Origin: Psilocybe cubensis
Taxonomy: Eukaryota
Reading direction: 5' to 3'
DNA length: 64,000 bases
NCBI GenBank assembly: GCA_017499595.2
Contig: CM039003.1
Location: forward strand, 2,790,001-2,854,000
In this document: positions 1,758-37,699 of the stretch, one piece after another
How the letters are laid out: each line of letters starts with the position of its first letter
Position numbering within the stretch: the stretch's first letter is position 1
Notes under the pieces: generated by a model
Told to the model about the DNA's origin: nothing
The model's input: the letters and a program-made list of their open reading frames with translations, nothing else
Database searches by the model: none
Position numbers and translations under genes: made by a program

Positions 1758-1772
1758 CATCAGCAATACCGG
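1758..1772 (+). repeat. Left terminal inverted repeat
   Basis: CATCAGCAATACCGG matches the reverse complement of 20004-20018 (CATCAGTAAATCCGG) at 12/15 positions. Confidence 0.8.
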
Positions 1773-1970
1773 GGCCAAGTAGGTAATGATCCGTAGTGAT
1801 ACGTAATTCTGTAGTGCCCATAGTAACGGTCCCATTTGGGTAACACACACTGATGTACCTGTAGCTTGGTACCAACGCTGTCATGGTATCTGTATTGTAA
1901 CGCGAGTGCTGTGTAGCGGCGTGTAGCATGCTTACCATCCATACCCCTCTGTATACAACTGACATACAAA

Positions 1971-2062
1971 TTGTAGCATACTACCACAGATTTGTAGCAT
2001 GCTACCACAGATTTGTAGCATGCTACCACAGATTTGTAGCATGCTACCACAGATTTGTAGCA
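1971..2062 (+). repeat. Subterminal 21-bp tandem repeat (TTGTAGCATGCTACCACAGAT, ~4.4 copies)
   Basis: Directly visible. Core GTAGCATGCTAC is palindromic. TGTAGC also occurs at ~1860, ~1913 and ~1922, and inverted ATGCTACA occurs at 19888 and 19956. Confidence 0.9.
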
Positions 2063-2330
2063 CATCATAACACACTGCAAATAGGTACAAAGGCATATAT
2101 AGTATCCACTTTCATTTGTATAGTGTTGTGTGGCTATTCCTGCAAGTGCCAATATCACACTGAAAACCGAACCATTTTTGACTAAAATGGGCAATTTTAA
2201 AAATAGATAATCTATGTTTGGATCGGACCAAACATGTTTCTATTAGTAGATGCATAACTATTAATACGTGACGATCTAAATATGGTATCTTCTAATCCAC
2301 ACCCGGCAGCTGCCCCGCTCATTCACCCAA

Positions 2331-5072
2331 CTACCCTTCTGGACCGTAATCTAGTTCCTCCTGTGGGATAGAATGGAGAGTCATCCTATAAGGGTTGGGG
2401 GGGTTCTTCGTAGGCCTCATAATAGCACTGATTATGGAGATCTAAATGATGCAAAGAAAGAAATGAATAAAAAAAGATACACACCATCCTTCCTCAGCCA
2501 CTTCCCTACATAAGCAAGCCAAGCGAGGACCTTGGTTCAAGGTATCCTTCTCTGCCTCTGCTGCAACCAACATGCAGGCATCATACCTCAGGGAGTACTC
2601 CTCTCCCTTGAATTCAATACCCGAACACGGACCACCTCTTGCAGGGTCAATCCCATCCCTCCACTCCTCAAGACAGTTGTGGATCTACAGCAAAATGCTT
2701 GTTAGCAAGGCAGTGCCAATAGCAGGAGAGAAATCAGAACTACACAACTGGCCACAAGCGCAAATGCTTTGTGGGGAAGCGATGTCTTGAAGAAATCCGT
2801 CTTTGTCTCCAGACCTTTGATGGGGACTGCAACCCCTTTTGTAGGATGGTAGAAGAAGTCCAGACAGATCTTCTTCACAAAAGGATGTCCAAATGGGACA
2901 TCGTGATACTGGAAACAAATCAATGAGTGGTAAGCCAGGTAAAATGGACGGCGAACTCACTCGGGTTTTGGCAACACCCCGGTGGTATTTACCATTGAGT
3001 AGCCAATATGCTACCCTGTCCTTGATGTATTCGATCTCCCCCATCTGATTTTCAAACATATTGGGGTTCGCGGCGATGACCTCCGACGGGACTTCGAGGC
3101 CATACGCATTTTTGACCAGGGGTCTGATCATCGTCTTCAGTCTTCCCCGGAAGGTTGACGCGTAGACAAATGCCTAATGAGAACAGACACGTTAGTACAA
3201 TATCCTTAAAAGAACACGCTAAAAATATACCGTTACGGCGGTATTCCTGTCTAGGAGCGTTTTTTTCTCTGCAAAGTTATGTAAACCAATTAACTAAAAT
3301 CACAGAAGACAGAACTTACTATCAGGCAACACTTTATCCGTGTTCATTCTTTCAAACACGGTTACTGCCATCTTCACACATCCATCGGCGACTAATAAGT
3401 GATTTTCCCGAGTGGGAAAGGGGACCTCCTCTACTACATACAGGCACATCAGTTTGCGTGCAATTTTGAGCACATCTTTCCAGTAACCAGTAAAGGATGC
3501 AACTGAATGCTTGGATACTTCCCTAGCAGAAGAAGTACTGGACTTCTTATGAGCGATGTGTGCCTCACCAAGCACCTCATCATCGTCAGATGCTTCGTTG
3601 TTCTCCCTTGTCAAACCTTGGGATACGGCTCCTTGCGAAACAGCCGCCTTGCGCAATGCCTCAGGGCGAGGTGGCTTGTTCGCCCGATTACGACGACGGT
3701 GTTCTTGAAGAACATCCTCTACTTCCACAACCTATATCAATAATACATTAGCTAGACATTAAATACAGCAGAGAAATGATTACATGGGGGGAAGGCTGGC
3801 GGAGCAATGCCCTTGCTCTCCTCTCCTCTTCATCATCGGAAACTTCATCAACCACTGTCAAACATAGGTGGTAAGCAAACACGACATAAAGGTGGAGTTA
3901 AACCAACGCTGGGCAGCAGGCTCTTCATCATCTTGACCCGCGTCGTCGTAACCTTCATCACCGTCGACATATTGGAGAGCTTCTTCATCCCCAATATTCT
4001 CTTCATCAATTCCTTGCATGCATTCGTCCCCTGATGCTTCCTCAGATCGCCTTTCACCGTCACTATCCCCCTCTTCCTCCTCCTCATCTTCCTCCTGCTC
4101 TATGCCTTCGTAATCTTGTTGCTCCTCCTCGTCTTGATGGCTGATGCTAGCCTCTTGGTGGGCGTTATAGGCTGCTGGATGCACTGGCTGTTGTACGGGG
4201 GCATGTTGTGTTACAGGATGCACTGGTTGTTGTACGGGGGCATCGTAGTATTGGACAGAATTCTCTGCCGCAGGGGCAGCGTAACGCTGAACAGGATTTG
4301 CTGCGTGTTGTACAGGGCGCGGGACAGGATGTGCTGCATGTTGTACGGGGCGCGGGACAGGATGTGCTGGCTGTTGTACCGGAGCAGCGGGGCGCTGGAT
4401 GGGGGCAGTGGGTCTTTGGACAGCATGATCAAGCTCTGAGTGCTCCTGATTTCTCTGAGCTGCACGTTGGATCTGGACAGGAGGGGGGGCACCCTGAGAT
4501 TGTCGTGGGCTTGGTTGGACTTGTTGGACATCCCAAGGAGCAACTGAAGGCGTTGGCCTTGGTTGCATTTGAATAGGGGGACCTACATGCGACACAACGG
4601 TAACCTAGACGTGCTTGGAAGATAGCAAATTTAAGATTAGAACAGTAGACTCACCCCATTGCGAGGTTTCTTCAAGGGAGGCGCCATCTCATTTTCAGGC
4701 ATGGCGCTAGTATCCACATTGGCGGCCCTTGACTTCCTCTTCCCAGCCTTCTCGAAGTCAATAAAAATGATGTTAGATGTTTTCTCCTGCCGAGCATTTA
4801 CTCCACCAAGACCACGGGTGCTTCGGATAGGACGGCCATTGTGGTCTTTTTAATAAGGAGTTCAGTGAATCTCAACAAAGAAAATGCTAGTACAGACCTG
4901 CTTCAGGAGCCTGAGGTGGCTCGTTTTCTGCCACGGAGCTCGGACCCTGTTCAACCTCTTGTCCTAGATGGATAAAACATTAAGTATGCGGATGTAATGA
5001 GGATATATAGATGATACCTTCAACCGTGGCATTGACAACCGCCTTTTTCTTTTTGGATCCTTTAGGTGGCAT
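2331..5072 (-). CDS. Multi-exon hypothetical protein: basic N-terminus, Pro/Gln-rich and acidic middle, DUF6532-like C-terminal domain
   Basis: Starts MPPKGSKKKK (ATG 5072). GT-AG splicing joins ORFs 3858-4595, 3300-3728, 2685-3131 and 2702-2923. The C-terminal PFGHPFVKKICLDFFY...FALVASC IHNCLEEWRDG...F...Y...Y pattern resembles TE-associated DUF6532. Stop TAG at 2331-2333. Confidence 0.7.
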
Positions 5073-5343
5073 ATTGGGCTGGTTTGACGGTTGTAATGCA
5101 GAAATAGAGACAAGGGGTGGTGAATTATGTCAAGCTACGATCCGGAGGTATGCGAAATTAGCCTCTTTTCAAAATTTAAGGCGACGGACATCAGTCAAAA
5201 ATATATCGTGCCATATAGAAATTACAGGTACTGAAACAGTACCCCTATCTACTACAATATATCACATATACATTATAGTCAGATTCCATGTCCTACTTAG
5301 AGTTAAGTAAAGTTACATCTCAGAGGGGAAAAGACTGCACCTA

Positions 5344-5699
5344 TCATGATCGCGGATTATCCTGAGGGTGCATTAGAATAGGTATTCCCCGACTAATGAG
5401 GGATACCCGTAGACGGGCGATTTCGAGCTGGGTTTCAAACAGAAGATCTTCATTGGATTTATATGCTCGCATAATGTCGTCCATATAACAACGTAGCTCT
5501 GCCTGAACTTCTAGACACCTCTGTTCAGTGAGTTGAAATTGGTCAAGAGCCTTTTTAACGGCCTCTATGCCTTGATTCTAGAGGAAGGTGGATTAAAACA
5601 TGAAAATAGACCTAAAACGAAGAACTCTGCCTCTTCGGGTATGCTAGGGAGGCGGCGACTTTGAGGTTGCGAAGCGTTGTTGCTATTGGAATGGTTCAT
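5344..5699 (-). CDS. Small putative coiled-coil protein (~100 aa, one intron, donor uncertain)
   Basis: MNHSNSNNASQPQSRRLPSIPEE, then a pyrimidine-rich TAG acceptor and an open helical exon NQGIEAVKKALDQFQLTEQRCLEVQAELRCYMDDIMRAYKSNEDLLFETQLEIARLRV...*. Confidence 0.45.
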
Positions 5700-5866
5700 G
5701 ATAAAGATAGGCAACAATTTGGTGTGGTGGTGGTGGCTTAAGTTCAAGACGATCAACACATTACGAACCATTAGCACTGTTGATTGCCGAAATACACTTA
5801 AATAGAATGACATAAAACCCGTATATGTCTACAAGTCCGTGTTCGAGATACAAGTAATGCTGCACC

Positions 5867-8226
5867 CTACATATTTACAACTTTGACACCACGGGACGGG
5901 GGGAAGATTTGAATCAAAGATGTTGTCGGAAAAGTTGGGAATGTATCACCGCGTTTCATACGAGTAACGGGATATTTATGTACAACGCAAATATCCTTGT
6001 CTATTGATCGTATCCTGAATATAATCCCCATTGAATCGCCCTCAAGCGGTGTAACGAAGTCGTCCTTTTTTACAGGATGAATTGGAAACAACACTGATTT
6101 CGGTAATGTCAGTGTACGTCCCAGTAATGCTAGGTGGGCAGTATCGTCGGTAAGGCTGAGAAGTTCCATCGCCACTTGATGGTCGCCCTTGGATTTGTCT
6201 ACGACTTTTAATCGTAATCCTTTCAGCTTATCGTATTTCGTATCTAGCCAGTGAGCGACGGTTGAGGGTAGTTCTGCGATTTCCACCGCCGAGTGTACAG
6301 GTATTGCTGAATACGGATTCCATGCAGGAGACAGAAAACTTGCTACTGTGGACGGCATTGGAGTTGCTCCACCAGAAGGCCCGGGGTCTTGAGCGGAATT
6401 TATATGTTCTCGGTTGCTTGAAACAATGTCAGTAAGCACCTGACAGTCAACGAATCAAGTGAAACCACATACTGTATAATTAAATGTGATATTTTAATAC
6501 GTTCCACCCTCTGGTTACGAGCTTCCAGCTCAACGTCTGCAAAGCCGTCGGGGGTAGTGCTTTTAACGATGCCATAGTACCCCTTGAATGTATTATTCCC
6601 GACAACGATGACACTCAAACCTATATAGACGTCGTTGTGGTCTCTTTCTCCAAGCTTTGACGAATGACGCTTTCGCGGGCGAAGAGTAGCATGGGCAGGG
6701 GGGACGTAGAATATGACTGTGTGGATGGGCACAATGACCTGAAAAATGTGTTGAACACTACTGAGACAAAGAGAATGACAGTTCACCTACTTCGCGTTCG
6801 TGCTCTGGGGCGATAATACAAACAGATCTTCCATCAAAGTCTGACACCCATCCATGGAGATCTTTGTGATCCCCTTCAACGACTTCAACACTATCGCCTA
6901 TCTGGAAAGCTGCACGTAGATCGTGTAGTGCAACTGCTTGTGTTATACCTTGGGAGGGGATGTGCACTTCCACCTCAGCGTCAGAAACACTCTTGACCGT
7001 TCCAAAAAGACCTAAGTATTCTCCACCAATAATTTTGACTCGATCATATCGTTTCAGTCGAGTCATGGAGATGGCTTTCGAGGCTTGCGCTAAGGTCTCC
7101 GTCGTTACAAATGGACACTCGCGAAATTGCTCCAACTCGGACGATGTTGGGAGGACATTGGAAAGATATTTGAGATCAATGGCGTCGAAATCCGTGATAA
7201 TAAATCCATCCTGGAATATCCTGTCGAGGTGCGATTTCTTGATGTTGTCCGGAGGTCTGGGGATAAGAACAACACTTTTCCGACCCTGGAATGTGAACAC
7301 AAGGCCGGTAGCATTTGCGTAGGTCGTCCAAGCCTTACGCTTTCCAGCAACCTTGACCCACGATTGGTCTTCAGGGCGTGAGGGTGGGGGATGAGATAGG
7401 ATCTCCATACATCTCTCCGAGGATAGCCTAACTAAATGTGTCGGATTAAGCTCTCTAACGAGGCAGGCTAACGTATGCGCATGTTGCATTGATGGTGCCT
7501 CGACGTAGATTCTCCCAGGAATTGAGGATTGAGCGAAGACAGACCGGGCAAGGATGATGGGAAATGTAGGGTTCGTTGACATCTGCATAATTTTGAAAGC
7601 GACGGCCTCTTCGCGTCCAACCTATCACTCGTAAGGTGATCAATAAATGCTGACTGAAGACTTATATTATTTTTGCGTACCTTGCAACCTATTTCATACA
7701 TGATATCAGTCGCGGAAGGCATATAATTATTATCACCAAGTCCTCCTGGTTGGGGATTGCCATATTTCTGTATAAGTTCTCGTGAACTAGATGGCTCTAT
7801 ATCATTGTCAGGATGAATTTTCATGCGTGAAGGCAGAAGCATGGGCAACAAATCGCTCCATTCATCAGCGTTATCTGTATTTTGCATGGCATGATATAGC
7901 CGAGAGTGTGCAACACGTTCCTCATCCTCAGAGTATTCATCGTTATCATTCACTGTATGTCAGAACCCATTAGCATCAGTACATATTGAGCAGAATATAT
8001 GTAAATTATTGGAACATACGTAGTTGGCCCCCTTCATAATCAAGCTCTTCCGAACTTTCATCATCATCGGAAACCGCTGCTTCAATGTCTATGAAGGGAT
8101 TAATGTCCTGATTTTTTGAGATCATAATTAAATTTCCCTGAAGTTAGTGATTAGATGGAGGGTTGGATTAGTACACACTGTGCGGTTGCCTAGGCTGTCA
8201 AGTCGTCTGCGTTTATAACTAGACAT
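5867..8226 (-). CDS. Spt5/NusG-like transcription elongation factor homologue (acidic N-terminus, NGN domain, KOW domains)
   Basis: Spliced model: MSSYKRRRLD...NPFIDIEAAVSDDDESSEE (Spt5 N-terminal motif); PSATDIMYEIGCKVGREEAV...SVFAQSSIPGRIYVEA (NGN); KOW motifs YDRVKIIGGEYLGLFGTV, GDSVEVVEGDHKDLHGWV and GLSVIVVGNNTFKGYYGIV; short TP/SP patch (GATPMP...SPAWNP). Confidence 0.8.
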
Positions 8227-8330
8227 TGTGGGTCTTAAAGACTGTTAATCGATGTTCATCTCACTTAATTTATCATCTTAACTTGTGATAATTTATTTTT
8301 AGATACTACACAACCTATTACTATGATAAG

Positions 8331-8597
8331 ACGCTATGATGAACGGAAAGAGAAAACATATGGTGAGAAACACGCTATTTCCGGAGCGATTCTTTAGGGT
8401 AGGTTTCCCGTCCTGAAGTCACGAGTTGGTTAAAAAAACGCCCCCTTACATCAGCCGCATCACCGTGATGCGGCTGATGTAAGGGGGCGTTTTTTTAACC
8501 AACTCGTGACTTCAGGACGGGAAACCTACCCTAAAGAATCGCTCCGGAAATAGCGTGTTTCCAACTTGATTGTTTTTCTTTCCGTTCGTCATAGCGT
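8331..8597. repeat. Long palindrome: perfect 97-bp arms (8367-8463 / 8465-8561), 1-nt spacer, imperfect outer arms
   Basis: gaaacacgctatttccgg...gcatcac c gtgatgc...ccggaaatagcgtgtttc. Outer arms acgctatgatgaacggaaag (8331) and ctttccgttcgtcatagcgt (ends 8597). Confidence 0.97.
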
Positions 8598-8737
8598 AGT
8601 ACCCCTCCCCATAGATTTAACATACATTCTAATAAAATAGACATAGACAATACTCTAGACACTCTATAATAGTTTTCGTTCAGTTAAAATTCATCTAGTT
8701 GAAAATTTGAGACACCAGAAAAAAACACACAAAAAAA

Positions 8738-11700
8738 AGTAAGTACACAAAGAAATAGAATGCAGGGTGAGACATTGAAGTTTTGTAGTGCAAGCCCAGA
8801 AGATTTCCCCCGTTGCCCGACTCCAAGCTGAAGAAATTCTGGCGTTTCCCTTCGAAACGCAGGTCGTTCGTCAGACTCTGGAAAACATGTTGCCAGAGTC
8901 GCACCCACTCCGCGTAGGTCTTAATTGGATTGCCATTTATGGTACTAATATCAAGTTTCTGTAGAGGATGGTGGATTTCCTCCGACGATATGAGGACTTC
9001 ACCTTTTTGAATTACGATGTTTCATCATCGAGCATGCGAGCGGCCATCAAGTATAGGCAAAGCTTGGCTGCCCTTCAGAACAGCATCGTAGAGACACCCT
9101 GCGTAACCTCGGCTACATGGGAGCAGGCGGGTAGCTTATTTGCAGCATACCGTCTACTCGATCTCGTAGCGTTGTGGCCAGCAGCCTTTGGACCATCGTT
9201 GCCGGTGACCGTGCCCCTGAATGAAATACAGGCCAGCACAGGAACTAAGGAAATATTTTCACGGTTCAAGGTATGCGATCATGAAGTCACTCAATGTTAA
9301 TTCTTAATTTTCAAACAATTATTGTAGCTTGTAGATGACTTGAAGGACTGGCCGGCAATGCTCTGCTCTGCCAGGAAGCGCATCCTCAGAGCCGACTCTA
9401 AGTCGCACAGAAACATCAACACCCCTTCTATCAGTGACACGCCGTCATCCGCTTTCACCCAGGGCGGGCCCTCGGAATCAACGCTATTACTCTGTCTGGC
9501 GCGTAACCACTTCAAGGGTGTTGTGGGGAAAATAATCGGGAATGTGTACTGCGCCTCGCTACACTACCAAATCTTGTCAGGAATGCGCGGTATGAAGGAC
9601 GATGAACACATTCTACCAGACATTCCAACGGACACGGCTACTCTTGCAAATCTCTAGTAAGTTTTCTTTCCTCTATTCATTGATACAATCTGCTCAACAT
9701 ACCCTAGTGCAAGCGGCCATCCTGATGCTGCGTTGTTCCTCTCAGAGGTCACGCCATCTCATTTAAAAATTCCTCTGCATGTCGCCCTTTTCATATCCCC
9801 CATCCTTCTTTTTGTGAATAAATCTTGGTATTCTAAGAAATGTGACCGGGAGCAGCTGCTTAAAGTAGGTGTATCCACATCCTCCCAGTTTAACTTGGAT
9901 TAACGCACTCCTTTAGGCCTCAAAAGCGCTCGGTAATTGTCGCCCCCGTGTTCTGCGTGAAGTGGAGATGGAAATTTGGAAAATCATTGCAGCGCAAAAT
10001 TGCGACATCCAGTCAGCCTTATATAAACTTGTTATCTCAGACTGCTGGATGGAATGCGAGCGGGTAATTGCACAAGATCCCGCATTTCACTTTTTCATAT
10101 GTGTGTTCTACGTACTGTAACAAAATAACAATTTAAACTAATAATTGGCCAGCGTCAACGAGCAGCGCCGAGGTTACAGCAAATTCTAACCTAGCAAGGC
10201 GCAGCACTGAACCACACGGTAAGTTATAAGCAAAGTCTGCGTCAATTACATGATTTAAATCCGTTTAAAACAGCTCAACTTCAGACCGTTTCCCATCATG
10301 GTGAAAAAACCACCTGTGAAGGGTCCGACGCAGACGCGGAGGGTGACGATGATCACGAAGTGGACACGACGGAAATGGTCAGCATGGGTCAACGGGAGAA
10401 CGGGGACAATACGGTCCCTACCTCAAATATACAGCCTCCGGAAGACACGTCTTCAGTGGCTGGCAAGGATGTCAGCATGGGTCAACAGGAGAACGGGGAC
10501 AATACGGTCCCTACCTCAGATATACAGCCTCCGGAAGACACATCTTCGGTGGCTGGCAAGGATGTGCCCACGGACGAGCAACCTGGTTTGCCGCGGAGTG
10601 ATGATATTGGATCTGGTCTACTTCAGACTGAGAATACTGGGCCCTCAACTGCAGGGGATTGTGAGATGAACGTCGATCCGGAGCAAGCTGATGTCGACCA
10701 TCAAATGGAGGATGGTCCACATACCAATGGTCCAGAAAATTTGGGAGACGGCGGGGCTGGACAAGGAGCTGAAGGGTCTTCTGACGAGGCAAATCGTATG
10801 TCGGAAGTTCACGAGGGCGAAAAGCAGGGGCAAGACGGAGAACGACCCGACGAGGAGAACCGAATGTCAGAAGATGGTGAGGAGGAAAGGCCAGACGACA
10901 GTTCGTCGGACAATGAGACCGAGAAGCAGGGGCAAGGGGATGTTCCACCAGTCCAGGAGGACAGAATGTCGGTCGATGGAGAGGGGGTAGGCCCAGAGCA
11001 AAACAATGATTCCTCAGACATGGAGAGGAATACATTGGAAGACAGCCAAGGCGAAAAGGAGGGGGAGAACGCACCTCCTGCTCCTCTTATTTTGAGGATT
11101 CCTCCTGTTTCCCAGATAAACAGGAGCAAAAACACCACGGCTGACTCCTCTCAGAAAGGGAAAGGGAAGGGCCGGCAGGGCCTTTCCAAGCGGCCTCCCA
11201 AACGCAAGCCGACGCAGGCTACCGACACATTTGATTCGGACGACGACCTGTGTATTGATGTCGATCTGTACGACAGCAACACTACCCTTGATGTCGTCAG
11301 CACTCCGGAGAAGGTGTATGGCACCAAAGTTTGGTCCACCTACAACGGTCGTGGCCAACTTAAAAGTTTCTGCGTTGTTGCCCATGTAAGTCATTCTCAA
11401 TATTGATTTTTTCGTCATTTATTTATTCTCCAAACAAGAGTCAAGCCGACGTGGATCGTGTTGAAAGGGTTCTGGAATTGGTCGAGAATGACTACGTCGA
11501 TGGAGTTCCATTGCACATAGCACGTCCCGAAGAATCATGTTTTGCGGTATTCGACCGCAGCACCACGAAATCCATGTATCTGATGGAGTCTTTCTCTGAA
11601 AGGAACGTCGTCCTTATGTCTCCTTCTCAAGAGGAGTCTATTTCAACTTGCTCCGACGAGTTCTACAGCCAGGTACGTCGCCATATGGGTGATATGACGA

Positions 11701-13450
11701 GCACCAGGTCAATCCAAGGTGTGTTTCCTCTTCGATGTTTTGATTTTTCTTTCTGCGTCTCATGCTAATGGCCGTAACAGATATGTCGACCATGTCGTCT
11801 AACCCCATCGAGAGGATTAAGCGTGGGTCCCTCTCTCAGGTCATGGAAGCAGCGAGGATGAAAGGCAAAAGAGGAAAGATCCTCAATGCCCTCGACATCC
11901 CTTTACCTCATGCAGGCGCTCACTCTTTTGACTTGAGTACTGAGGCGGCTGCTCTTCGGGCTACATCTGGTAGCTGGAAGTATAGTACCCCCGTCCCATT
12001 TGGTGATATGTCGTGGGGACTCGTAGCTACAGAGGGGGCATTTTCAGATATCCATATCGATGCCAATGGTTTCTGTTCCTTCATCCAACCTCTTCATGGA
12101 CTGAAGCTGTGGATTATCATGTATCCCAGACGGTTGGATGTTGACCTTTCTTCTGACCGCCGTGTATTTCTGGGAGACAAGCTGGATTACGGGGAAACGC
12201 ACCACCAAGACTGGATTTACGAGGCGATTGTTCTCGATAACCAGTCAGAACTGTATGTGATTTTTGAATGTCCTACCCATTTGATTATATTGACGCTACT
12301 TTGAAAAACAGCTTCATGAGACCGAATACTCTACATATGGCGTATTCTATCTCCTCAGTGGTTTGCCGTGGCGGACATTTTTACTCCTCCACTTCCTTCG
12401 AAGAAACCCTGACAGGAATCATTCACTGTTTTACCGCTGGATACAGGGCAACGAATACGAATCATTCAACGTCCCGATTTTTCCTGCAGCAAACCATACA
12501 TTGGTTCTACAAGGTTTTGGTTGAAGGTGACAGCGACCCAGAAGGTATGAGGTTTTTTACCGTTTCCTACAAGATATCTGATTCTTTTCTTCTATTTTCT
12601 CTCAGATTTTTATGAAATGTACCATGTCCCATTCTACAGTACGCAGTCCGGATACTCGAGCTTGATAGCTCTGTGCGTGTGCATGATCTTGGCAAATGCG
12701 CTCGACTACGAGACCTATCGAAATCCCGATCAGATGTTCTCCACCAAGACTTCGGCACAGTTAGACGCATGGATGCGGTGGGATACCAACAGCCTGAGCA
12801 ACGAAGAGCGCAAGGCGTGCATCTTTGCCCGTGGCGAAGCCTTGGCTATTCTAGAGTGGCTATGTCATCGCACGAAGTCCATCCACTACATGATTGAGAC
12901 GGACAAAAACAAGGATGCACAAAATATCATGGCGACAGAAAAGTTCCATGAAATGATACTTTGCCGCTATGCCCGTATGATTCTAGCCTACGACGCAGAA
13001 GCCAAACATAACAACATTGGTGGTGCCCCTTGCTGTACCGACACCAGTTTGCTTTTTGTCCAGCTTCAGGGCGTCTGCAGCGGAGAATTGAACAAGGTTA
13101 TATGTCGCAGTATCGACCAGCTTCCTCGTTCCTCGGTCCCAAAGATGCTCAAGTTACCCGTAATCACTCTCATTGACTGTGATGCCTGTGCGGATTCCTC
13201 AACGCAATTGAGTAGGTGGACCAGTGTCTGCCTTTGGATATTCACTAACCACGTCACAAACTAGGAACTCCCAAGGAGATTCTGGAACTTGGTACGAGTG
13301 TGAGGGATAAACTGTATCTGGATGGCATGAAAGTCAAGCTGGAGAGCACAAATCTGAGTACGTGTGTTCGATTATGCCTTTACGTCGCAAATGCTTATCT
13401 CTTCATCAGAATCAGAGTCTGTTCCGCCTTCTAAACGACGGCGACTTTGA
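8738..13450 (+). CDS. Large multi-exon JmjC-domain (2OG-Fe(II) dioxygenase) protein with acidic low-complexity middle
   Basis: GT-AG splicing gives one continuous frame through ORFs 8968, 9340, 10360, 11403, 11762, 12268 and 12617. JmjC motifs GAFSDIHIDANGF...GLKLWII (HxD) and FMRPNTLH...CRGGHFY (distal His). Ends in NLS-like PPSKRRRL*. The start codon appears split A|TG by intron 8739-8788. Confidence 0.75.
10378..10563 (+). repeat. 93-bp in-frame tandem duplication (31 aa x2) inside the JmjC gene
   Basis: VSMGQ(R/Q)ENGDNTVPTS(N/D)IQPPEDTSSVAGKD repeated at 10378-10470 and 10471-10563. Confidence 0.95.
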
Positions 13451-13921: not shown

Positions 13922-16900
13922 ATGAGTCGTTGTTTCAACATGGGAAAGGGCAAGGGCAAGAGAACTCAGGAAATCTGTGTGCGTTGTCCTCGATGCAACA
14001 AGCCATTCGCTAAGCATGCAGATGTCCAAAATCACATCAATCAACCAAAATCGGCATGTCGTTTTCAATATGAGAACGTTATGCATTTTCAGTCCAATCG
14101 TTCAAGCTCTACATCTAGATCAGCAACCCCCGTATCTCGAGACCCTTCTCCCGAAATTGGTAATTTTATGGAAGTGGACTATATCGACAATTTTCTTGGC
14201 GCGTCATCAGAGATGGAAGATGACCCACCCCCCAAGGCATCAAAATACAACTATCCGTACGTGAAGGAGGATTATAACGGGGCTGGAAGAGCATTTGGAA
14301 CAGGCCTTACATTCATGGATCAGCTCAAACAGGATCAATTCGAACCCCAGCGGGCGGAAAATTTGTACTATCCTTTTGCCTCGAAAGATGAATGGGAGCT
14401 CTCCCTGTTCCTACTTCGCTCTGACATGAGCGTAGGAATGCTGAATGATTTTTTGAAACTTGAACTGGTAATTGAGCGTACATTCCCATCATTATTTATT
14501 TCAGCTGAGTCGATCCCGTATAGATAAAAAAACTCAACTTGTCCTACAAGTCGGCAAAAGATCTACGCAACCGGGCAGAGATCCTTCCCTCTGGTCCGCA
14601 GTGGAAGAGTCAAACGATCATACCAGAAATACCAAGCAAAAATCAGCTAACGCTTTTTTACCGCGATGGATTGGAATGTATCAAGGCGCTTCTCATCAGT
14701 CCCTTGCTCCAAGATAGCATGCACTTTAGCCCATTCAAGCTCTTCGACAAGTGCAACGAGATGATGCGGGTATACACTGAGTGGTTTAGCGGTGACATTG
14801 CGCATTTTATGCAGGTTAGTAGCAATGCCTTTGTCCAAGTTTGACGACAGTATAACAAGGTTCCCAAGGACCAGCTCCCAAAAGGAGCAACACTTGTACC
14901 TCCTATTATTTCCACGGATAAAACCAACATTTCCAACATGACCGGAGGCCGTGTCGCCTACCCTGGCCTTATCAGCATTGCCAACATAATGATGAACGTT
15001 AGAAACAAATCGTCAAATCATTTATTCCTTCTTTTTGTTCTTCTTCCCATACCAAAGTTTCTTCATCGCTCCAAAGCTGTGAATGGGATGATGGCAGCAC
15101 GGCTATATCACCAGTGCATGGACATTGCTCTAGAATCGGTCAAACAAACTGCGAGGGTGGGAACCACCATGGCAGATGCATTGGGGAATAATCGTTTCTG
15201 CTTTACACCGCTTGCTGCCCTTATCGTTGATACTCCAGAATCTGCTCTGGCGGCTTGCGTCGCAGGATCCACATCCTCTGTGACGTTGGCACAATACGAG
15301 ACGTTTGGGGATTCCTTTCGCCACCCTTCCCGAACTGCAGATCATACAATCAACACCATCATGGCCATCAACAATGTTAAGCCCCCTAATCATCTCGAAC
15401 CATATCTAAAAGAAAGCAAAAAGCACCGTCTCAATGGGGTTCACCTACCGTTTTGGAGAGATTGGCCCTTGTCTGATCCTTCTGCATTCCTTACGCCTGA
15501 ACCCCTTCATCACTGGCACAAGATGTTCTGGGATCATGATGCAAAATGGTGCATTGCTGCAGTCGGAGGTTCCGAATTGGATTTTCGATTTTCGATTTTA
15601 CAGCACCGCACTGGTTTCCGACACTTCAAGGAAGGGATTTCTTCCTTGAAACAAGTGACCGGTAGGGAACATCGGGACGTTCAGCGATGCATTGTTGCTC
15701 TCATTGCAGACACAGTCAGTACACCCTTTATCTTAGCCATCCGGTCTCTGATGGACTTTCGGTATCTCGCACAATCTCAAACAATCTCCGAGGCAATGTG
15801 TCTCAGAATTGAGCAGGCACTGCAAGATTTCCATGCCAATAAACAAGCCATCCTTGACGCGGGAGCACGTCGAGGTAAAAAAAACAACCCAATTGATAAT
15901 TTCTATATTCCAAAACTCGAGTTTTTGCAAAGTGTAGTACACGCAATTAGACTAAATGGATGTGCAATCCAATGGTCTGCAGACACGACAGAGCATGCAC
16001 ATATCGAGGTGGTCAAAGCCCCTTCCAGTTCCAGCAATAATCAAAGATACGAGCCTCAAGTTTGTCGATACCTTGATCGTCGTGACAAATTGCGCAATTT
16101 CGATTTGTTTACAGCTATACGAGAAATGAGGATCGATTTTCGGGCTATACACTCTGCAACAATTACGGATGAGGAGGAGCAGGAGGAGGGGGATGAGGGG
16201 GAGGAAAACGGCGAGGTTGTGATGGACACAACGTCAGAACTTCTTTCAACAATCATGCCGATGACAACCTTTCAATCAGCAAAGTCCAATCGCATTGTGG
16301 ATTACTTCTACAAAGCTAGTCTCTATGAGCGTGGCGTATTGGAAGGCCCAGTCCCCTACAGAACATTTTCTTGCAGCAAAAACGTTGTTGCCCATTTATC
16401 TAGGGATGCTAGTTCCAAAAGATTGCATATCGACGAGGTTGCGAGCATTTTTAAAATTCCCGACCTACGACCAGCAATTGCCGATTATGTGTCACTCATC
16501 AATAAGGAATCAAATCCGAGACACACCAATTCTCGAGGTTATCACATCAAGGGGATAACTGGCAGGCGTGTTTCTCCTCCCGGTTGTCCGTTGCCGTATT
16601 CAAAACTTGAGGTATGGCATAAGGTCCGTATACAGTCGACTGCGTACCAATACCCTCATGAGATCCTGGAGGCAGTCACACTTAATGCATATCCGCCATC
16701 TAACAAACATCCTTTTGGATACTTCGATTCAGCAATCATAAACGTGGATGAATCTGAGGAGTGGCCTCGCAGCGGGCTTCAAGGTAGTACTTCTTGGTGA
16801 CTTTTTTCCGAACCCCGTTGACCAGCCAATATTGTAGGCCATTCTGTCGTCGACATTCGTATTATTTTTCGCATTGTCGGAGAGACACCCAGTACTGTGT

Positions 16901-17226
16901 CTCCCGATATTACTGGAAGATTTCTCGCATACGTCCAACGTTTTGAGGTTTTAAATCAGCCACAGTCTCTAGGTTCTGCGATCCGTGGACCTTACCCAGA
17001 GCCAATAACCGGCATGTATAAATTAAAACGAAGTCAACGTACAGATAACACCATTATGGGTGGAATTTTACCATTGAATCAAATACGCTCCCTGGTTGAT
17101 CTGGTCCCTCAGATGGGCGAGAAGGCAAGGCGAAGCCTTACTACACATAACAGTCATTCCACTAGCACCGAGTTCCGATTAAACAAATATTTTGACAAAG
17201 AACTCTATTTGGCCCTGTCATCATAA
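13922..17226 (+). CDS. Plavaka-family transposase (N-terminal CxxC-H-C zinc finger, catalytic core, DUF6830-like C-terminus), 3 introns
   Basis: Motifs CPRCNKPF...H...C, YYPFASKDEWEL, LFYRDGLECIKALL, RVYTEWFSGD, PPIISTDKT (catalytic D), VDTPE, EPLHHWHK, IPKLEFLQ and SADTTEHAHI (catalytic E). Exons join in frame. Confidence 0.88.
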
Positions 17227-17266
17227 CATATCCACCTCAGGAAACCCACAAAGTTTTCAATCCCTA

Positions 17267-17790
17267 ATGCACATTGCCACTCAAATTATCACCCAACACG
17301 CCGGCCTCGTTGTACACAAAGACGACTCGGATCAATATCAACAGCCGCTTCTCACCAGTCCCGCTTTCTCACACTGTATCATCGTCACCTACTGCATATC
17401 CCTCCATCCATCTCATCTCTGCAGAATCAAGTCGTTCTCGCTCATCTTCCGCTCACCACCGCCCAAACTCCAAAGGATTCTTCCCAGAGTGCCTCTTCCT
17501 CTAAACAAAAATTCGCCTCCAGTCTTGTCGGTCCGTCCTGTCCTCAATTAGCGCCCATCTTGCCGGAGATACTCACTTTATTTTTTCAATTCCATTGCAG
17601 ATTAAGCTGTCAGCACCTTATCTGAGATCTGGCGCCCTCAAGACATTCCCTCCCTATTTCTACCCACTGAAGTCCTTTGAGGATTGAGGACATCTGGAAA
17701 CATACTGCAGACAGCACTATGTTATCTCGAAGCCATTCGTCCCAAGGTTCCCAAAATTTGCAAGAGGAAAGCATTGGCCTCTCTCCCACA
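17267..17790 (+). pseudogene. Degenerate, internally deleted upstream duplicate of the cyclin gene
   Basis: ~17390-17660 is a diverged direct repeat of ~17820-18100. 17684-17780 encodes the cyclin-box fragment NILQTALCYLEAIRPKVPKI. It contains a stop (TGA ~17622) and frameshifts. Confidence 0.7.
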
Positions 17791-18910
17791 ATCCATACCT
17801 GCCATGCCTCTGTATCATTACCTACTGAATACCCCTCCATCCGTCTCATTTCTGCAGAATCAAGTCGTTCTCACTCATCTATTCCACCCACCACTGCGCA
17901 AATTCCAAAGGATTCTTCCCAGAGCGCCTCTTCTTCTAAACAAAAATTTTTTTCAAGGCTTGCCGGTCCGTCCTGTCCTCAATTAGCGCCCACCTTGCCA
18001 GAGATACTCACTTTATTTTTTAAATTCCATTGCAGATCAAGCTGTCAGCACCTTGTCCGAGATCTGGCACCCTCAGGATATTCCTTCCGTGTTCCTACCC
18101 CCCGCCAAAGTAGGGGGTAGCTCTTTTCCTCCTACTCATTCCCGTCCAACTTCCAAGCAGATCTCTTCCGATTTGCAATCCATAGCGTCTCATACACATC
18201 CAATACATCCACACAACAGTCATCCCTCCGTATCCGGCCATAACCCTTCCCCGACCCTCTTGCTTGCCTCGGGCACCAAATCCGATCAGATATTACCCCT
18301 CAAGTCTTTTGTTTATAAAGTCCTTCGCCACTCAAGGACATCTAAAAACGTACTGCAGATAGCACTATGTTATCTAGAATCCATTCGTCCCAAGGTCCCA
18401 CAGATTTTGCAAGAGGAAAACATTGGCATTCGCTCTTATGCTCAGCCCAAAAGCAGTATTCAGAAAGCTACCCCAGAAGAGCTGGCGATGGATGCTGAGC
18501 TTACTGCTCTTGAGAACTCCAGCAAGATCAACATCATCAATAATTTCATTGACAATTCTATGCAAACATTCCGTGTTGCCGATTCTGGTTCACAAGATCT
18601 GGCTGAATCGTGCATCTATCCACAAGACTCTCTGTCCAGCGTAGATGTGCAGGTCTCAACGGCTCCTCTTTCCACCACCCTTTCTTTGCCATCTCCCCTC
18701 CTGTGTCCCCGTAGAGCCTTTCTGGCATCCCTCATCCTGGCCTCCAAATTTTCACAAGAAAAGTGTTATTCTAACCGTGCTTGGGCAAGGTTATCTGGTC
18801 TCCCACCTCGTGAAATTGGTCGCTGCGAACGTGCCCTCGCACAAGCCTTGCAATGGCGACTCTGGGTCGGCAAATGCGCCTTTGGTGAGAGTGCTGCAAC
18901 TGCCACATAG
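17719..18910 (+). CDS. PCL/Pho80-family (Pcl5/Pas1-like) cyclin; start codon uncertain
   Basis: Cyclin box LPLKSFVYKVLRHSRTSKNVLQIALCYL...PSPLLCPRRAFLASLILASKFSQEKCYSNRAWARLSGLPPREIGRCERAL...LQWRLWV. Intron 17966-18035 gives KFFSRLADQAVSTLSEIWHPQDIP. Confidence 0.8.
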
Positions 18911-19154
18911 TCTCAATAAGTTTCAACTTTCACGACCGCGCCATGTAGTACGCATTCTCAATAATCACTCTTTTGCTTGCCACCACTACGCGCGCTCCTC
19001 CCGCATTCAGTTAGATAGGCATCTTCTTAGACTAGCCTAGAAAAATCTATAGAACTTTGTTTTACGTATACAGAACCCCTGAAGAATTTTTATACCCGCG
19101 AAGTTTGTTTTCAGCTTGAATTCCAACTACGACAAAGTGAGCGTATCACACACC

Positions 19155-19705
19155 ATGCAAATCATCAGCTATGAGGAAATTTTACGAATCGAAGCAGAAG
19201 TATTGGCCCCTACTTTCCCAGATCTAATACATCCTACAACTTTCCCAGAGGCCGCCTCACTTGCTTCTCAAAGACAGCAATACGACTTGGAAATGGCTCA
19301 GTTAGTTGAGCAGACCCAAAAAATGGTCCTTTTGACCGAGAACAGGCTGATACTGGCCATCCTGGCCCTTTTCAACGAAATTAACTGGACCACCCTGGAC
19401 CCAAGGTTACTATCGTTGGCTAAAGCCAAGATTACCGAGGGTGACCAGTGGCTCAAAGCACGAGCCGTGAGTTTTCTGTTTCTTCAAGTTTCAAGTTGAT
19501 ACTCTTGCTTAAGATAACTAGGAGGAGACACTTCGGGATGCAGACTCAGGCAGCCCCGAGCACATATTGACCCAAGGGATGTCCATTATAGCCAACGGCC
19601 AGATTCATATTCGAACGGTAGAGGTGAGTCACAGTGATAACTACTTTGTTTCTACACTTTCTTAGTAATGGGCAGGATCTCATACGAGAATGTCAGGATC
19701 ATTAA
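19155..19705 (+). CDS. Small alpha-helical hypothetical protein (~147 aa, 2 introns)
   Basis: MQIISYEEILRIEAEV...WLKARA|EETLRDADSG...IRTVE|DLIRECQDH*, with GTGAGT donors and in-frame AG acceptors. Confidence 0.6.
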
Positions 19706-20003
19706 TAGGGTCAAGATACTACATTGTAAATAGACACTTAATTGCCTTTAAAAATGTACATTTTATTGCTTGATATGATTGAAGAGCTTTACTGAGACCA
19801 ATCACATTGGACATCAAACTCTCCTAAGTCTGGAATCGTACATAGAGATAGCTAGGAAAATCCAAAGCTCGCAGTAGTAATGTTGGAATGCTACAGAGCT
19901 CAACGGAGCATCCCGCCGATGACACATGACGCTATACTGTCTACAGCCCACTTTGATGCTACATCCGGTTGGCAGGACAATACGTTGAGTTACCTCCGAA
20001 AAT

Positions 20004-20018
20004 CCGGATTTACTGATG
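20004..20018 (-). repeat. Right terminal inverted repeat
   Basis: CCGGATTTACTGATG followed by the CA TSD. Confidence 0.8.
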
Positions 20019-37697: not shown

Positions 37698-37699
37698 TC

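What the first reader, a model, noticed from the sequence alone, without database searches (positions are those of the whole stretch)
1758..20018. 18-kb Plavaka transposon with exact ends carrying a chromatin/transcription toolkit (Spt5-like + JmjC + cyclin)
Seen: both ends are fixed to the base by two empty alleles in this window (CA TSD, CATCAG/CTGATG termini). The element holds a transposase plus six apparently intact spliced genes. Established: Plavaka transposases occur in basidiomycetes; Spt5 promotes Pol II elongation and is regulated by cyclin-CDK phosphorylation; some JmjC proteins (Epe1, IBM1) antagonise heterochromatin. Inference: this is a cargo-carrying giant transposon encoding its own anti-silencing/expression module, analogous to but unrelated to ascomycete Starships. 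Its normal CpG content, beside repeats showing CpG decay, fits that idea but also fits a recent insertion.
Basis: partly seen in the sequence, partly recalled or inferred. Interest (0 to 1): 0.92.

Follow-up and report, generated by a model that had tools for sequence, protein, structure and literature searches.

The report
Active mushroom transposon carrying chromatin-type genes
This is a real, recently active 18-kb "Plavaka" jumping gene present in roughly 7-16 near-identical copies, and it carries its own copy of a transcription-elongation-factor-like gene plus two other regulator-like genes, though nothing yet shows that they protect it from silencing.

Summary
The element runs from 1758 to 20018 with CATCAG/CTGATG ends and a CA duplication. 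Two empty paralogous sites in the window fix both ends. Raw reads of a public run fix them again: depth jumps about 7-fold exactly at the ends and reads run into many different flanks. Termini and the 2-bp duplication match the published PlavakaB lineage (PMC12730594, passages).

It encodes an intact Plavaka transposase. It also encodes an NGN+KOW Spt5-like protein (Pfam above cut-off), a probable JmjC-like oxygenase (motif and language-model evidence only; HMM and fold tests failed), a divergent PHO80-type cyclin (sub-threshold) and a DUF6532-like gene.

The Spt5-like gene is not the host's SPT5. It belongs to a large multi-paralog Agaricales family that lies in repeats, beside other transposases, and is under purifying selection (dN/dS 0.19-0.64).

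The anti-silencing reading is untested. One result argues against it: 15 of 22 differences private to this copy are CpG-to-TpG changes. The Starship analogy is not supported.

Verdict: a new variant of a known kind, of moderate-to-high interest.

The parts
1756..1757 (.). Left copy of the 2-bp target-site duplication (CA)
   Evidence: the empty sites read ...gaaggcaca|tacatg...; the filled site has CA on both sides.
1758..20018 (+). Whole PlavakaB transposon (18,261 bp)
1758..1772 (+). Left terminal inverted repeat (CATCAGCAATACCGG); 11 of the first 15 bases match the reverse complement of the right end, and the first 6 match perfectly
1950..2075 (+). Subterminal array of five to six 21-bp tandem repeats, each holding TGTAGCAT(GCTAC); probable transposase-binding sites (inference)
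   Evidence: family D2; all 5 forward TGTAGCAT in the window lie at 1922-2035.
2331..3731 (-). DUF6532-like gene (approximate model; borderline Pfam hit on one exon)
   Evidence: PF20149, E 7.2e-5, 23.2 bits against cut-off 24, on ORF 2685-3173; model.
3748..5072 (-). Pro/Gln-rich and acidic open reading frame; may be the N-terminal part of the DUF6532 gene or a separate gene
   Evidence: own splice models; no Pfam hit.
5344..5699 (-). Small predicted gene of about 100 aa; weak model, uncertain
   Evidence: score 5.1.
5867..8226 (-). Spt5-like gene (acidic N-terminus, NGN, at least 3 KOW; about 685 aa; several short introns)
   Evidence: Pfam; collinear end to end with 688-703-aa homologues of Agrocybe chaxingu and with deposited copies P0174, P0023 and P0173.
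8331..8597 (.). Near-perfect palindrome (two 133-nt arms, 93% complementary) between the divergently oriented Spt5-like and JmjC-like genes. Its centre reads TA-CATCAG...CTGATG-TA.
   Evidence: (I1). Depth dips and odd joints occur here.
8760..13450 (+). JmjC-like gene (conserved N-terminal region, acidic repeat region, C-terminal HID...GLKLW...GGHFY region). The start codon is uncertain.
13941..16800 (+). Plavaka transposase with C-terminal DUF6830. Exons 13941-14467, 14524-14814 and 14860-16800.
   Evidence: P0017, 890 aa, ends at 16794.
16822..19009 (+). Cyclin-like gene region. The main exon is about 18036-18884. A diverged internal duplicate lies at 17381-17778, matching 17814-18427. Gene limits are uncertain.
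19085..19705 (+). Terminal predicted gene with no recognised domain
   Evidence: P0014 covers 19113-19623.
19888..19963 (-). Two inverted copies of the subterminal motif (ATGCTACA) near the right end
20004..20018 (-). Right terminal inverted repeat (...CCGGATTTACTGATG)
20019..20020 (.). Right copy of the target-site duplication (CA)
30548..30549 (.). Empty paralogous target site (single CA) in tandem unit B
47503..47504 (.). Empty paralogous target site (single CA) in tandem unit C

Best explanation
The element is an autonomous cut-and-paste DNA transposon of the PlavakaB lineage (EnSpm/CACTA-related). It amplified very recently to roughly 7-16 nearly identical full-length copies.

Shown: exact ends, a 2-bp CA duplication, an intact DDE-type Plavaka transposase gene, inverted subterminal TGTAGCAT repeats, many insertion sites, and a few internally deleted derivatives.

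Inferred: the transposase binds the subterminal repeats, cuts at CATCAG/CTGATG and integrates with a 2-bp stagger.

Besides the transposase, the element carries long-standing transposon genes rather than freshly captured host genes. These are an Spt5-like NGN-KOW protein, a probable JmjC-type oxygenase with its metal and 2-oxoglutarate residues in place, a divergent PHO80-type cyclin, and a DUF6532-like protein. The Spt5-like gene belongs to a large Agaricales family that sits in repeated DNA, next to other kinds of transposase or TET/JBP genes, and evolves under purifying selection.

My best guess, at about 30%, is that these proteins act for the element. The Spt5-like protein would dock on RNA polymerase II through its NGN domain and help transcription across the 18-kb element or through repressive chromatin. 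The oxygenase and cyclin would modulate chromatin or timing. Any such protection is incomplete, because this copy already bears CpG-to-TpG damage.

The confidence given here (0.8) is for the structural part: a PlavakaB transposon, multi-copy, with transposon-borne accessory genes. It does not cover the functional guess.
For: - Ends and duplication.
- Copy number and many flanks: X13 summed depth is 397-613 in the 27 bins wholly inside the element and 381-442 in the two end bins, against 80 in the left flank. 58,133 of 70,183 laid reads are >=99% alike. Loose ends at 1757/1758 and 20018 have consensus agreement of only 0.37-0.42. X7 contig k-mer depth is 150-216 against 11.4 for the flank contig.
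- Deposited near-identical proteins: one cluster of 39 proteins. The 15 listed lie on 8 different contigs of 2.6-4.2 Mb.
- Same gene order in another copy: consecutive locus tags run Spt5-like, Spt5-like, JmjC-gene N-terminus, JmjC-like, transposase.
- PlavakaB features: 2-3-bp duplication and 5'-CATCA..TGATG-3' termini (PMC12730594, passages).
- Transposase; intron reading.
- Spt5-like: Pfam. 382 relatives at E<=1e-3, the best non-self at 36-41% identity. The named relatives come from Cyclocybe, Agrocybe, Panaeolus, Galerina, Tricholomella and Arthromyces, with several per species.
- Tree: a clade of 35 of 43 rows (SH-like support 99) lies apart from the canonical-like rows.
- One Agrocybe model fuses KOW with Tet_JBP.
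- Metagenome loci: 25 of 25 hold the gene, in families 80-94% alike. An EnSpm Transposase_21 ORF lies upstream in L021. Two stretches in the same order, part of that transposase region and the Spt5-like gene, recur in L016 at 82-87% identity. A Helitron ORF lies in L025.
- dN/dS is 0.19-0.64 in all 49 listed pairs and 0.20-0.33 where dS>=0.25.
- JmjC-like: ESM Atlas 0.98 with 209 shared features; motif. A second multi-copy paralogue family at 53-62% identity shares the intron-exon layout.
Against: - No RNA evidence of any kind, so splicing and expression are unverified.
- JmjC is not recognised by Pfam or by a PDB profile search. The AlphaFold model was unusable (mean pLDDT 28.3).
- The paralogue family (P0004) has lost the H, D and K residues, so catalysis is dispensable in at least one lineage.
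- The cyclin is below Pfam cut-offs and has no PDB sequence match.
- None of the other genes of this element was found beside Spt5-like genes in the 25 metagenome loci: 0 of 7 other queries hit, and 124 of 127 tblastx segments lie in the Spt5-like gene. The gene set as a whole is therefore not a conserved module.
- Only 2 of the 72 neighbouring ORFs scanned matched any Pfam family; both were transposon families.
- Of 22 listed sites where >=75% of reads differ from this copy, 17 are C-to-T type and 15 lie at CpG, although CpG makes up 8.6% of positions. This is the mark of methylation-linked mutation, so the copy is not immune.
- The copy-number figure depends on which baseline is taken: about 7x against the left flank, and about 14-16x against the run average or the X7 flank contig.
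Confidence: 0.8

Rival explanations
1. One reading: the accessory genes form an effective self-encoded anti-silencing and expression module (Spt5 + cyclin-CDK + JmjC). This module keeps the element free of heterochromatin and DNA methylation, making it a basidiomycete counterpart of Starships.
For: - CpG observed/expected is 0.81 in the element. The neighbouring young Gypsy element has 0 CpG of 267 expected.
- The accessory genes are intact and are retained in nearly all copies.
- The Spt5-like family is under purifying selection.
- There is precedent for transposon-borne TET/JBP and other chromatin genes (PMC12730594 and bioRxiv 10.1101/2025.02.11.637652, passages).
Against: - 15 of 22 private differences of this copy are CpG transitions, so the CpG-directed process does reach the element.
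- CpG is already lower at the element's two ends (0.64-0.67).
- The cyclin is of the PHO80 type, not the type that (by my recollection) drives Spt5 phosphorylation, and no Spt5 C-terminal repeat was detected.
- The genes do not travel together elsewhere.
- None of the 30 ORFs scanned matched a tyrosine-recombinase family, and nothing marks any gene as host-beneficial cargo, so the element is unlike Starships.
Confidence: 0.2
2. Neutral passengers: the extra genes were picked up by a Plavaka ancestor and simply hitch-hike. They look intact only because the family is very young, and they do nothing for the element.
For: - Copies are >=99% alike, so intactness within the family says little.
- No RNA evidence.
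- The JmjC-like paralogue family lost its catalytic residues.
- The gene set is not conserved as a block in other loci.
Against: - The JmjC-like gene keeps an open frame and its intron layout across two families only 53-62% identical.
- The Spt5-like gene is collinear over about 680 aa with homologues at 27-29% identity.
- Its relatives have dN/dS of 0.19-0.64.
- Few deletion derivatives lacking the genes are seen: joints of 7-27 reads against a depth of about 550.
Confidence: 0.2
3. The accessory proteins serve the mechanics or regulation of transposition itself, in the manner of the second protein (TnpA) of maize En/Spm. That protein binds subterminal repeats and is needed for excision (recalled, not checked here). 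On this view they do not remodel chromatin.
For: - Plavaka is EnSpm-related (PMC12730594, passages).
- The element has subterminal repeat arrays.
- A relative of the Spt5-like gene lies beside an EnSpm transposase in L021 and L016.
Against: - No DNA-binding domain was recognised in the accessory genes.
- NGN-KOW, JmjC and cyclin folds have no known role in DDE transposition.
- Relatives of the Spt5-like gene also lie next to a Helitron gene and a TET/JBP gene, which use different mechanisms.
Confidence: 0.1
4. The 18 kb is a nested composite of two or more elements that happens to be bounded by Plavaka ends, for example a Plavaka with other transposons inserted inside it.
For: A palindrome at 8331-8597 has a CATCAG...CTGATG core flanked by TA. 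A 98-bp CATCAG...CTGATG stretch sits at the very left end, 1758-1855.
Against: - Depth is flat over the whole length.
- The strong multi-flank loose ends listed lie at 1757/1758 and 20018 (492 further loose-end rows were not shown).
- No second transposase was found among the 30 ORFs scanned.
Confidence: 0.05

Closest known systems
PlavakaB DNA transposons of Agaricomycotina, including the TET/JBP-carrying families of Agaricus bisporus and Gymnopus confluens (PMC12730594; passages read, supplements not seen)
   Same: Plavaka transposase; 5'-CATCA..TGATG-3' termini; 2-3-bp target duplication; an accessory gene of the 2-oxoglutarate oxygenase kind with a presumed role against silencing.
   Different: No Tet_JBP domain was found in the 30 ORFs scanned here. 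The oxygenase candidate has HxD and a JmjC-like G-x-K-x-W context, not the HxE that marks the PE type. The paper's main text holds none of the words Spt5, KOW, JmjC or cyclin. Its supplementary family sequences, which I could not see, might already include this family.
Giant Plavaka elements of red algae with accessory genes PAG1-3 (bioRxiv 10.1101/2025.02.11.637652; passages read)
   Same: Size of 17-19 kb; a Plavaka transposase plus several accessory genes of chromatin or DNA-modification type, including a 2OG-oxygenase-like one; inverted repeats next to an accessory gene.
   Different: The accessory genes differ (6mA methylase + SET, and ParB + oxygenase there). The host kingdom differs. 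That paper states that only TET/JBP was known as a Plavaka accessory gene in basidiomycetes.
Maize En/Spm (CACTA) with TnpA, and Arabidopsis VANDAL21 with VANC (En/Spm recalled from memory; VANDAL as mentioned in the passage)
   Same: DNA transposons that encode a non-transposase protein acting on their own expression or methylation state; subterminal repeat arrays.
   Different: The proteins are unrelated, and no activity has been shown for this element.
Specialised Spt5 paralogues: plant SPT5L/KTF1 and Paramecium Spt5m (titles and abstracts seen in the listing; otherwise recalled)
   Same: An NGN-KOW paralogue set apart from the housekeeping Spt5 and tied to transposon-related or non-coding transcription.
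   Different: Those are host genes that serve silencing or genome editing. Here the paralogue is carried by the transposon itself.
Starship elements of ascomycetes
   Same: Mobile DNA that carries extra genes.
   Different: By my recollection, Starships move by a tyrosine-recombinase 'captain', are tens to hundreds of kb long and carry host-relevant cargo. Here the enzyme is a DDE-type Plavaka transposase, the size is ordinary for CACTA-like elements, and none of the 30 ORFs scanned matched a tyrosine-recombinase family.

Membership tests
PlavakaB transposons | Plavaka transposase domain (PF18759) | tested here: met
   E 1.1e-16 (profile positions 1-99) plus 5.6e-64 (103-325) on two adjacent exons; DUF6830 at 4e-45.
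PlavakaB transposons | Termini 5'-CATCA..TGATG-3' | tested here: met
   the definition comes from PMC12730594.
PlavakaB transposons | Target-site duplication of 2 or 3 bp | tested here: met
   CA on both sides and a single CA at two empty sites.
PlavakaB transposons | Transposase falls in the PlavakaB clade of the published tree | not tested
   The reference transposase sequences are in supplements that I could not read.
Canonical Spt5 (host elongation factor) | NGN domain followed by KOW domains | tested here: met
   Spt5-NGN 23.8 bits (cut-off 22.4), KOW 32 bits, KOW2_Spt5 51.1 bits, KOW5_SPT5 27.7-31 bits.
Canonical Spt5 (host elongation factor) | Canonical-only parts (Spt5_N, KOW1_SPT5, KOWx, C-terminal repeat region) | tested here: not met
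   None was detected on the exons scanned. Among 40 long relatives, only 8 carry KOW1_SPT5, 3 carry Spt5_N and 1 carries CTD.
Canonical Spt5 (host elongation factor) | Single-copy orthologue grouping with SPT5 of other fungi | tested here: not met
   It has the same multi-copy depth as the rest of the element. In the tree it falls in a 35-row clade apart from the canonical-like rows (FastTree, long branches).
JmjC / cupin 2OG oxygenases | Match to a JmjC, JmjC_2 or Cupin_8 profile | tested here: not met
   No Pfam hit at E<=0.1 or E<=10. A PDB profile search gave 0 hits at E<=10.
JmjC / cupin 2OG oxygenases | HxD/E ... H metal triad with a Lys about 15-18 residues after the first His | tested here: met
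   HIDANGF...GLKLW...GGHFY, read. The spacing rule is recalled, not computed. Paralogue P0004 reads ARIS...GLNLC...GGHFY.
JmjC / cupin 2OG oxygenases | Double-stranded beta-helix fold | tested here: inconclusive
   The AlphaFold2 model of P0005 had mean pLDDT 28.3, so no fold search was run. ESM Atlas features: best hits are JmjC clusters at 0.98-0.92.
PHO80-like cyclins (PF08613) | Profile match above the curated cut-off | tested here: inconclusive
   17.8 bits against 21 (Cyclin) and 17.6 against 23 (Cyclin_N). ESM Atlas 0.93 to PF08613 clusters. Depositors named fused models 'G1/S-specific cyclin pas1'. No PDB sequence match.
TET/JBP-carrying transposons | A Tet_JBP (PF12851) gene inside the element | tested here: not met
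   No hit in 30 of the 72 ORFs of >=80 aa. The smaller ORFs were not scanned.
Starships | Tyrosine-recombinase captain gene at one end | tested here: not met
   None of the 30 ORFs scanned matched a tyrosine-recombinase family. The mobilising enzyme here is a Plavaka DDE transposase.

The most novel reading that the evidence does not exclude
Agaricales DNA transposons of several superfamilies (Plavaka here; EnSpm-, Helitron- and TET/JBP-linked relatives elsewhere) recurrently carry their own paralogue of the RNA polymerase II elongation factor Spt5. This transposon-encoded NGN-KOW protein would be a dedicated factor that lets the polymerase transcribe the element through repressive chromatin. 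In this family it would act together with a JmjC-type demethylase and a cyclin. That would be a previously unrecognised class of transposon counter-defence aimed at the transcription machinery rather than at DNA methylation.
Probability: 0.25. Interest if true: 0.85.

Novelty: new variant of a known kind. Interest (0 to 1): 0.62.

Why it matters
Transposons that encode tools against host silencing are rare and informative; TET/JBP genes in fungi, VANC in Arabidopsis and the PAG genes of red algae are examples. This element is exactly bounded and evidently still active. Its accessory set differs from the known ones and includes a paralogue of a core RNA polymerase II elongation factor.

The relatives of that paralogue are widespread in mushroom genomes, sit in repeats, and are under purifying selection. 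This suggests a recurrent transposon gene that genome annotations currently label as 'SPT5'.

Roughly 7-16 near-identical copies sit beside a retrotransposon that is completely free of CpG. That makes the species a convenient system for asking whether, and how, a DNA transposon escapes or fails to escape CpG-directed genome defence.

On the practical side, these copies inflate and distort gene annotation: deposited models fuse the transposase with the 'cyclin' and JmjC-like genes.

Tried and rejected
- Whole genome: none is held, so copies could not be collected directly.
- rDNA as the nature of the 10.5-kb tandem unit: no Rfam hit in the window.
- RNA evidence: no RNA holder was listed for the element. 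The one presumed RNA contig set laid (X15) gave 0 records. This says nothing about expression.
- Earlier scan notes: nothing relevant.
- Spt5-like exon against longer proteins by the word-index search: no hit. The full HMMER search then found 382.
- JmjC-like homologues outside one species: two word-index searches found only Psilocybe cubensis proteins. That index is insensitive, so this is weak evidence of restriction.
- Structure of the JmjC-like protein: unusable (pLDDT 28.3), so no fold search was made. The deposited model used (P0005) is truncated and half disordered.
- PDB sequence searches for the JmjC-like profile and the cyclin-like exon: nothing meaningful.
- PE-type TET/JBP as the identity of the oxygenase: rejected on the HxE hallmark against HID here.
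- Linkage of the whole gene set in other fungi: 7 other queries gave 0 hits in 25 metagenome loci. A tblastx comparison gave only 3 short segments outside the Spt5-like gene.
- Pfam on 62 further neighbouring ORFs: 0 families.
- A first metagenome query with 16 sequences was too diverse. It was repeated with 5.
- An IQ-TREE 'quick' run did not finish; FastTree was used instead.
- Iyer et al. 2014 (PMC3918813) is not held, so I could not check whether it already lists these neighbours.
- Literature searches for a transposon-borne Spt5 found none: 'spt5 + transposon + kyakuja', 'spt5 / transposon-encoded / kow / fungi', 'spt5 / transposable element / agaricomycetes / paralog', and the 16 listed of the 20 papers that hold the word 'Plavaka'.

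Full report
**1. The observation**

CATCAG begins at 1758 and CTGATG ends at 20018, each next to a CA.

A local BLAST of the 600 bases on either side shows the following. The left flank recurs at 29952-30549 and 46907-47504 (99.0%). The right flank recurs at 30548-31148 and 47503-48103 (94.2%). The two matches overlap by exactly two bases. Printed side by side, the filled site reads ...gaaggcaCA|CATCAG...CTGATG|CAtacatg... and both empty sites read ...gaaggcaCAtacatg.... The ends and the 2-bp duplication are therefore fixed to the base.

The 'empty alleles' are really paralogous sites. The window is a tandem array of ~10.5-kb units:
- Unit A runs to 22844 and holds this insertion.
- Unit B runs 22844-39791 and holds a 6.4-kb LTR element.
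- Unit C runs 39791-50348.
- A partial unit D follows.

The unit is not rDNA. Five of its larger ORFs have no Pfam match.

**2. Mobility and copy number**

I laid raw Illumina DNA reads of run X13 and contigs of X7, X10 and X15 on 900-20899.

In X13 the summed depth is 80 in the left flank bin and 140 in the right one. It is 397-613 in the 27 bins wholly inside the element and 381-442 in the two bins that straddle its ends. Of 70,183 laid reads, 58,133 are >=99% alike.

Loose read ends pile up exactly at the ends: 140 and 224 reads at 1757/1758 'before' and 345 at 20018 'behind'. Their consensus agreement is only 0.37-0.42, which means many different flanks. The 123 reads that leave the left flank at 1757 agree at 0.92 on the empty-site sequence.

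X7 contigs carry the element at k-mer depth 150-216, against 11.4 for the flank contig.

The copy number is about 7 relative to the left flank. It is about 14-16 relative to the X7 flank contig, or relative to the X13 run average if the genome is 40-47 Mb. That genome size is my assumption from the contig totals.

A few deletion derivatives exist. Joints 14202>15577, 14631>19906, 14192>14322 and 15192>15251 have 27, 7, 19 and 19 reads. Joint 9111>11950 appears in an X7 contig.

Deposited proteins give independent support. Those nearly identical to this element form one cluster of 39, all named Psilocybe cubensis. The 15 listed lie on 8 contigs of 2.6-4.2 Mb. Consecutive locus tags in one copy run Spt5-like, Spt5-like (NGN), JmjC-gene N-terminus, JmjC-like, transposase.

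**3. Anatomy**

I scanned 30 of the 72 stop-to-stop ORFs of >=80 aa. I also built splice models with a small predictor of my own. These models have no RNA support, but they agree with deposited models of other copies.

*Transposase.* It starts at ATG 13941, with exons 13941-14467, 14524-14814 and 14860-16800. It matches Plavaka PF18759 at 1.1e-16 and 5.6e-64, and DUF6830 at 4e-45. The in-frame TGA at 14842-14844 sits in a 45-nt GTTAGT...AG intron, so the gene is intact.

*Ends.* The terminal inverted repeats match at 11 of the first 15 bases. An array of 21-bp repeats at 1950-2075 holds all five forward TGTAGCAT of the window. The only two reverse copies lie at 19888 and 19956.

*Minus strand.*
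- A DUF6532-like gene (borderline, 23.2 bits against 24).
- A Pro/Gln-rich acidic ORF that may be part of the same gene.
- A weak small ORF.
- The Spt5-like gene (5867-8226). It has Spt5-NGN, KOW and KOW2_Spt5 above cut-off. It is collinear end to end with 688-703-aa homologues.

*Plus strand.*
- A long gene (~8760-13450) with a conserved N-terminus, an acidic repeat region and a C-terminal region reading HIDANGF...GLKLW...GGHFY.
- The transposase.
- A cyclin-like gene with a diverged internal duplicate.
- A terminal ORF without a recognised domain.

A 133-nt-arm palindrome (8331-8597) lies between the divergent Spt5-like and JmjC-like genes.

**4. How good are the three names?**

*Spt5-like: solid as a domain call, but it is not the host SPT5.*
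- HMMER over 1.84 billion representatives found 382 relatives at E<=1e-3. The best non-self relatives are 36-41% identical.
- The named relatives come from Cyclocybe aegerita, Agrocybe chaxingu, Panaeolus cyanescens, P. papilionaceus, Galerina marginata, Tricholomella and Arthromyces. Several species contribute more than one.
- Of 40 long relatives, 28 have NGN. Only 8 have KOW1_SPT5, 3 have Spt5_N and 1 has the CTD repeat.
- In a FastTree tree the window protein lies in a clade of 35 of 43 rows (support 99), apart from the canonical-like rows. Branches are long, and no bootstrap was run.

*JmjC-like: probable, not proven.*
- Against: Pfam finds nothing even at E<=10. A PDB profile search finds nothing. 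The AlphaFold2 model of the only submittable deposited model (P0005) was unusable (pLDDT 28.3).
- For: the ESM Atlas feature search returned JmjC clusters at 0.98-0.92, and all ten of the best family-bearing hits fall in that clan. The H-x-D, K and H residues are in the spacing I recall for JmjC enzymes.
- A paralogue family (P0004, 53-62% identical, on two contigs) has lost H, D and K.
- It is not the PE-type TET/JBP, which has HxE.

*Cyclin: a divergent PHO80-type cyclin is likely.*
- Pfam gives 17.6-17.8 bits, below the cut-offs.
- ESM Atlas gives 0.93 to PF08613 clusters.
- Depositors used the name 'G1/S-specific cyclin pas1'.
- There is no PDB sequence match.

**5. Are the extra genes transposon genes or captured host genes?**

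A metagenome scan with a five-sequence Spt5-like alignment gave 25 loci. All 25 hold the gene. They fall into families 80-94% identical at the DNA level, several within one sample set.

All 15 loci examined keep an open exon of 324-345 codons. All 49 listed pairs have dN/dS of 0.19-0.64, and the value is 0.20-0.33 where dS>=0.25.

Of 10 large neighbouring ORFs, one in L021 matches EnSpm Transposase_21 (3.2e-10) and one in L025 matches Helitron_like_N (8.4e-29). Two stretches in the same order, part of the L021 transposase region and the Spt5-like gene, recur in L016 at 87% and 82% identity. The other 62 ORFs had no Pfam match. One Agrocybe model fuses KOW with Tet_JBP (6e-7, below cut-off).

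Against a conserved 'toolkit': none of the seven other proteins of this element hits any of the 25 loci, and 124 of 127 tblastx segments lie in the Spt5-like gene.

My reading is that the Spt5-like gene is a recurrent, selected transposon-associated gene. The particular combination seen here is specific to this Plavaka lineage.

**6. Does it escape silencing?**

CpG observed/expected is 0.81 in the element (0.64-0.67 in the end windows) and 0.88-1.02 in the flanks. The neighbouring Gypsy element has exactly 0 CpG of 267 expected.

That Gypsy copy is itself young and intact. Its LTRs are 99.78% identical, and it has a 1298-aa pol ORF and a 383-aa gag ORF. Its CpG loss is therefore a long-term property of that family, and the contrast with Plavaka is real at family level.

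However, the displayed table of differences points the other way. One search showed 40 of 243 rows, and I took the 22 rows inside the element where >=75% of X13 reads differ from the window. Of these, 17 are C-to-T type and 15 fall at CpG, although CpG makes up 8.6% of positions. This copy is therefore being hit by CpG-directed mutation.

The simplest reading is a young family that has not yet decayed. An effective shield is not supported, and a partial one is not excluded.

**7. Comparison with what is known**

PMC12730594 (passages read; supplements closed) defines PlavakaB by 2-3-bp duplications and 5'-CATCA..TGATG-3' termini, and describes TET/JBP-carrying Plavaka in Agaricales. Its text does not contain Spt5, KOW, JmjC or cyclin.

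The Bostrychia preprint (passages) describes 17-19-kb Plavaka families with three chromatin or DNA-modifying accessory genes. It states that in basidiomycetes only TET/JBP was known as an accessory gene.

Three searches for a transposon-borne Spt5 in fungi found nothing. Iyer et al. 2014 could not be read.

The element is thus a clear member of PlavakaB with a new accessory set. It is not a Starship analogue: it has a DDE transposase, its size is ordinary for CACTA-like elements, and none of the 30 ORFs scanned matched a tyrosine-recombinase family.

**8. Verdict**

- Novelty: a new variant of a known kind.
- The most interesting lead is the transposon-borne Spt5 paralogue family.

Noticed in passing
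window 31757-38152: An apparently intact Ty3/Gypsy chromovirus: pol ORF of 1298 aa, gag ORF of 383 aa, and 454-bp LTRs 99.78% identical. It contains not a single CpG, where 267 are expected from its base composition. Total CpG avoidance in a young, coding-competent copy suggests long-term adaptation of the family to CpG-directed mutation rather than decay of this copy.
   Followed up: partly
window 1-52766: The host sequence is a tandem array of ~10.5-kb units (at least three and a half copies, 87-99% alike). It has no rRNA, and five of its larger ORFs have no Pfam hit. Two different transposons have landed in different units.
   Followed up: partly
window 8331-8597: A palindrome with 133-nt arms (93% complementary) lies in the divergent promoter region between the Spt5-like and JmjC-like genes. 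Its centre is a 31-bp perfect mini-palindrome, CATCAG...CTGATG, flanked by TA on each side. It looks like a minimal Plavaka-type end pair, or it may be chance. Read depth dips here, and inverted or skipping joints occur.
   Followed up: partly
window 1757-1764: In run X13, 121 reads follow the left flank through CATCAGC and then agree (0.92) on a different sequence. This suggests that another element with the same 7-bp terminus sits at the same CA site in a paralogous unit of that strain, so the site may be an insertion hot spot.
   Followed up: no
L021:1849-5012 with L021:9740-10963; L016:1-1097 with L016:1711-4186: In metagenome contigs, an EnSpm-type transposase (Transposase_21 + DUF4218) lies upstream of an Spt5-like gene. 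Two stretches in the same order, part of that transposase region and the Spt5-like gene, recur in a second contig only 82-87% identical. A 53-nt-arm inverted repeat lies about 700 bp upstream of the Spt5-like gene in L021.
   Followed up: partly
L025:423-1874: A Helitron helicase-like ORF lies about 5 kb from a rearranged Spt5-like gene copy.
   Followed up: no
window 17381-17778 and 17814-18427: A partial internal duplication (81-90% identity) lies in front of and inside the cyclin-like gene. The upstream copy may be a decayed duplicate of its first exon region.
   Followed up: no
proteins P0004, P0021, P0022 (not in the window): A second multi-copy family of the JmjC-like gene exists in the same species, 53-62% identical. 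The presumed metal- and cofactor-binding H, D and K residues are replaced (ARIS...GLNLC), while the rest of the protein is conserved.
   Followed up: partly
window 1877-1937: Most copies of the family carry small insertions relative to this copy in the left subterminal region (for example about 12 extra bases around 1877-1887 and TGG after 1937).
   Followed up: no
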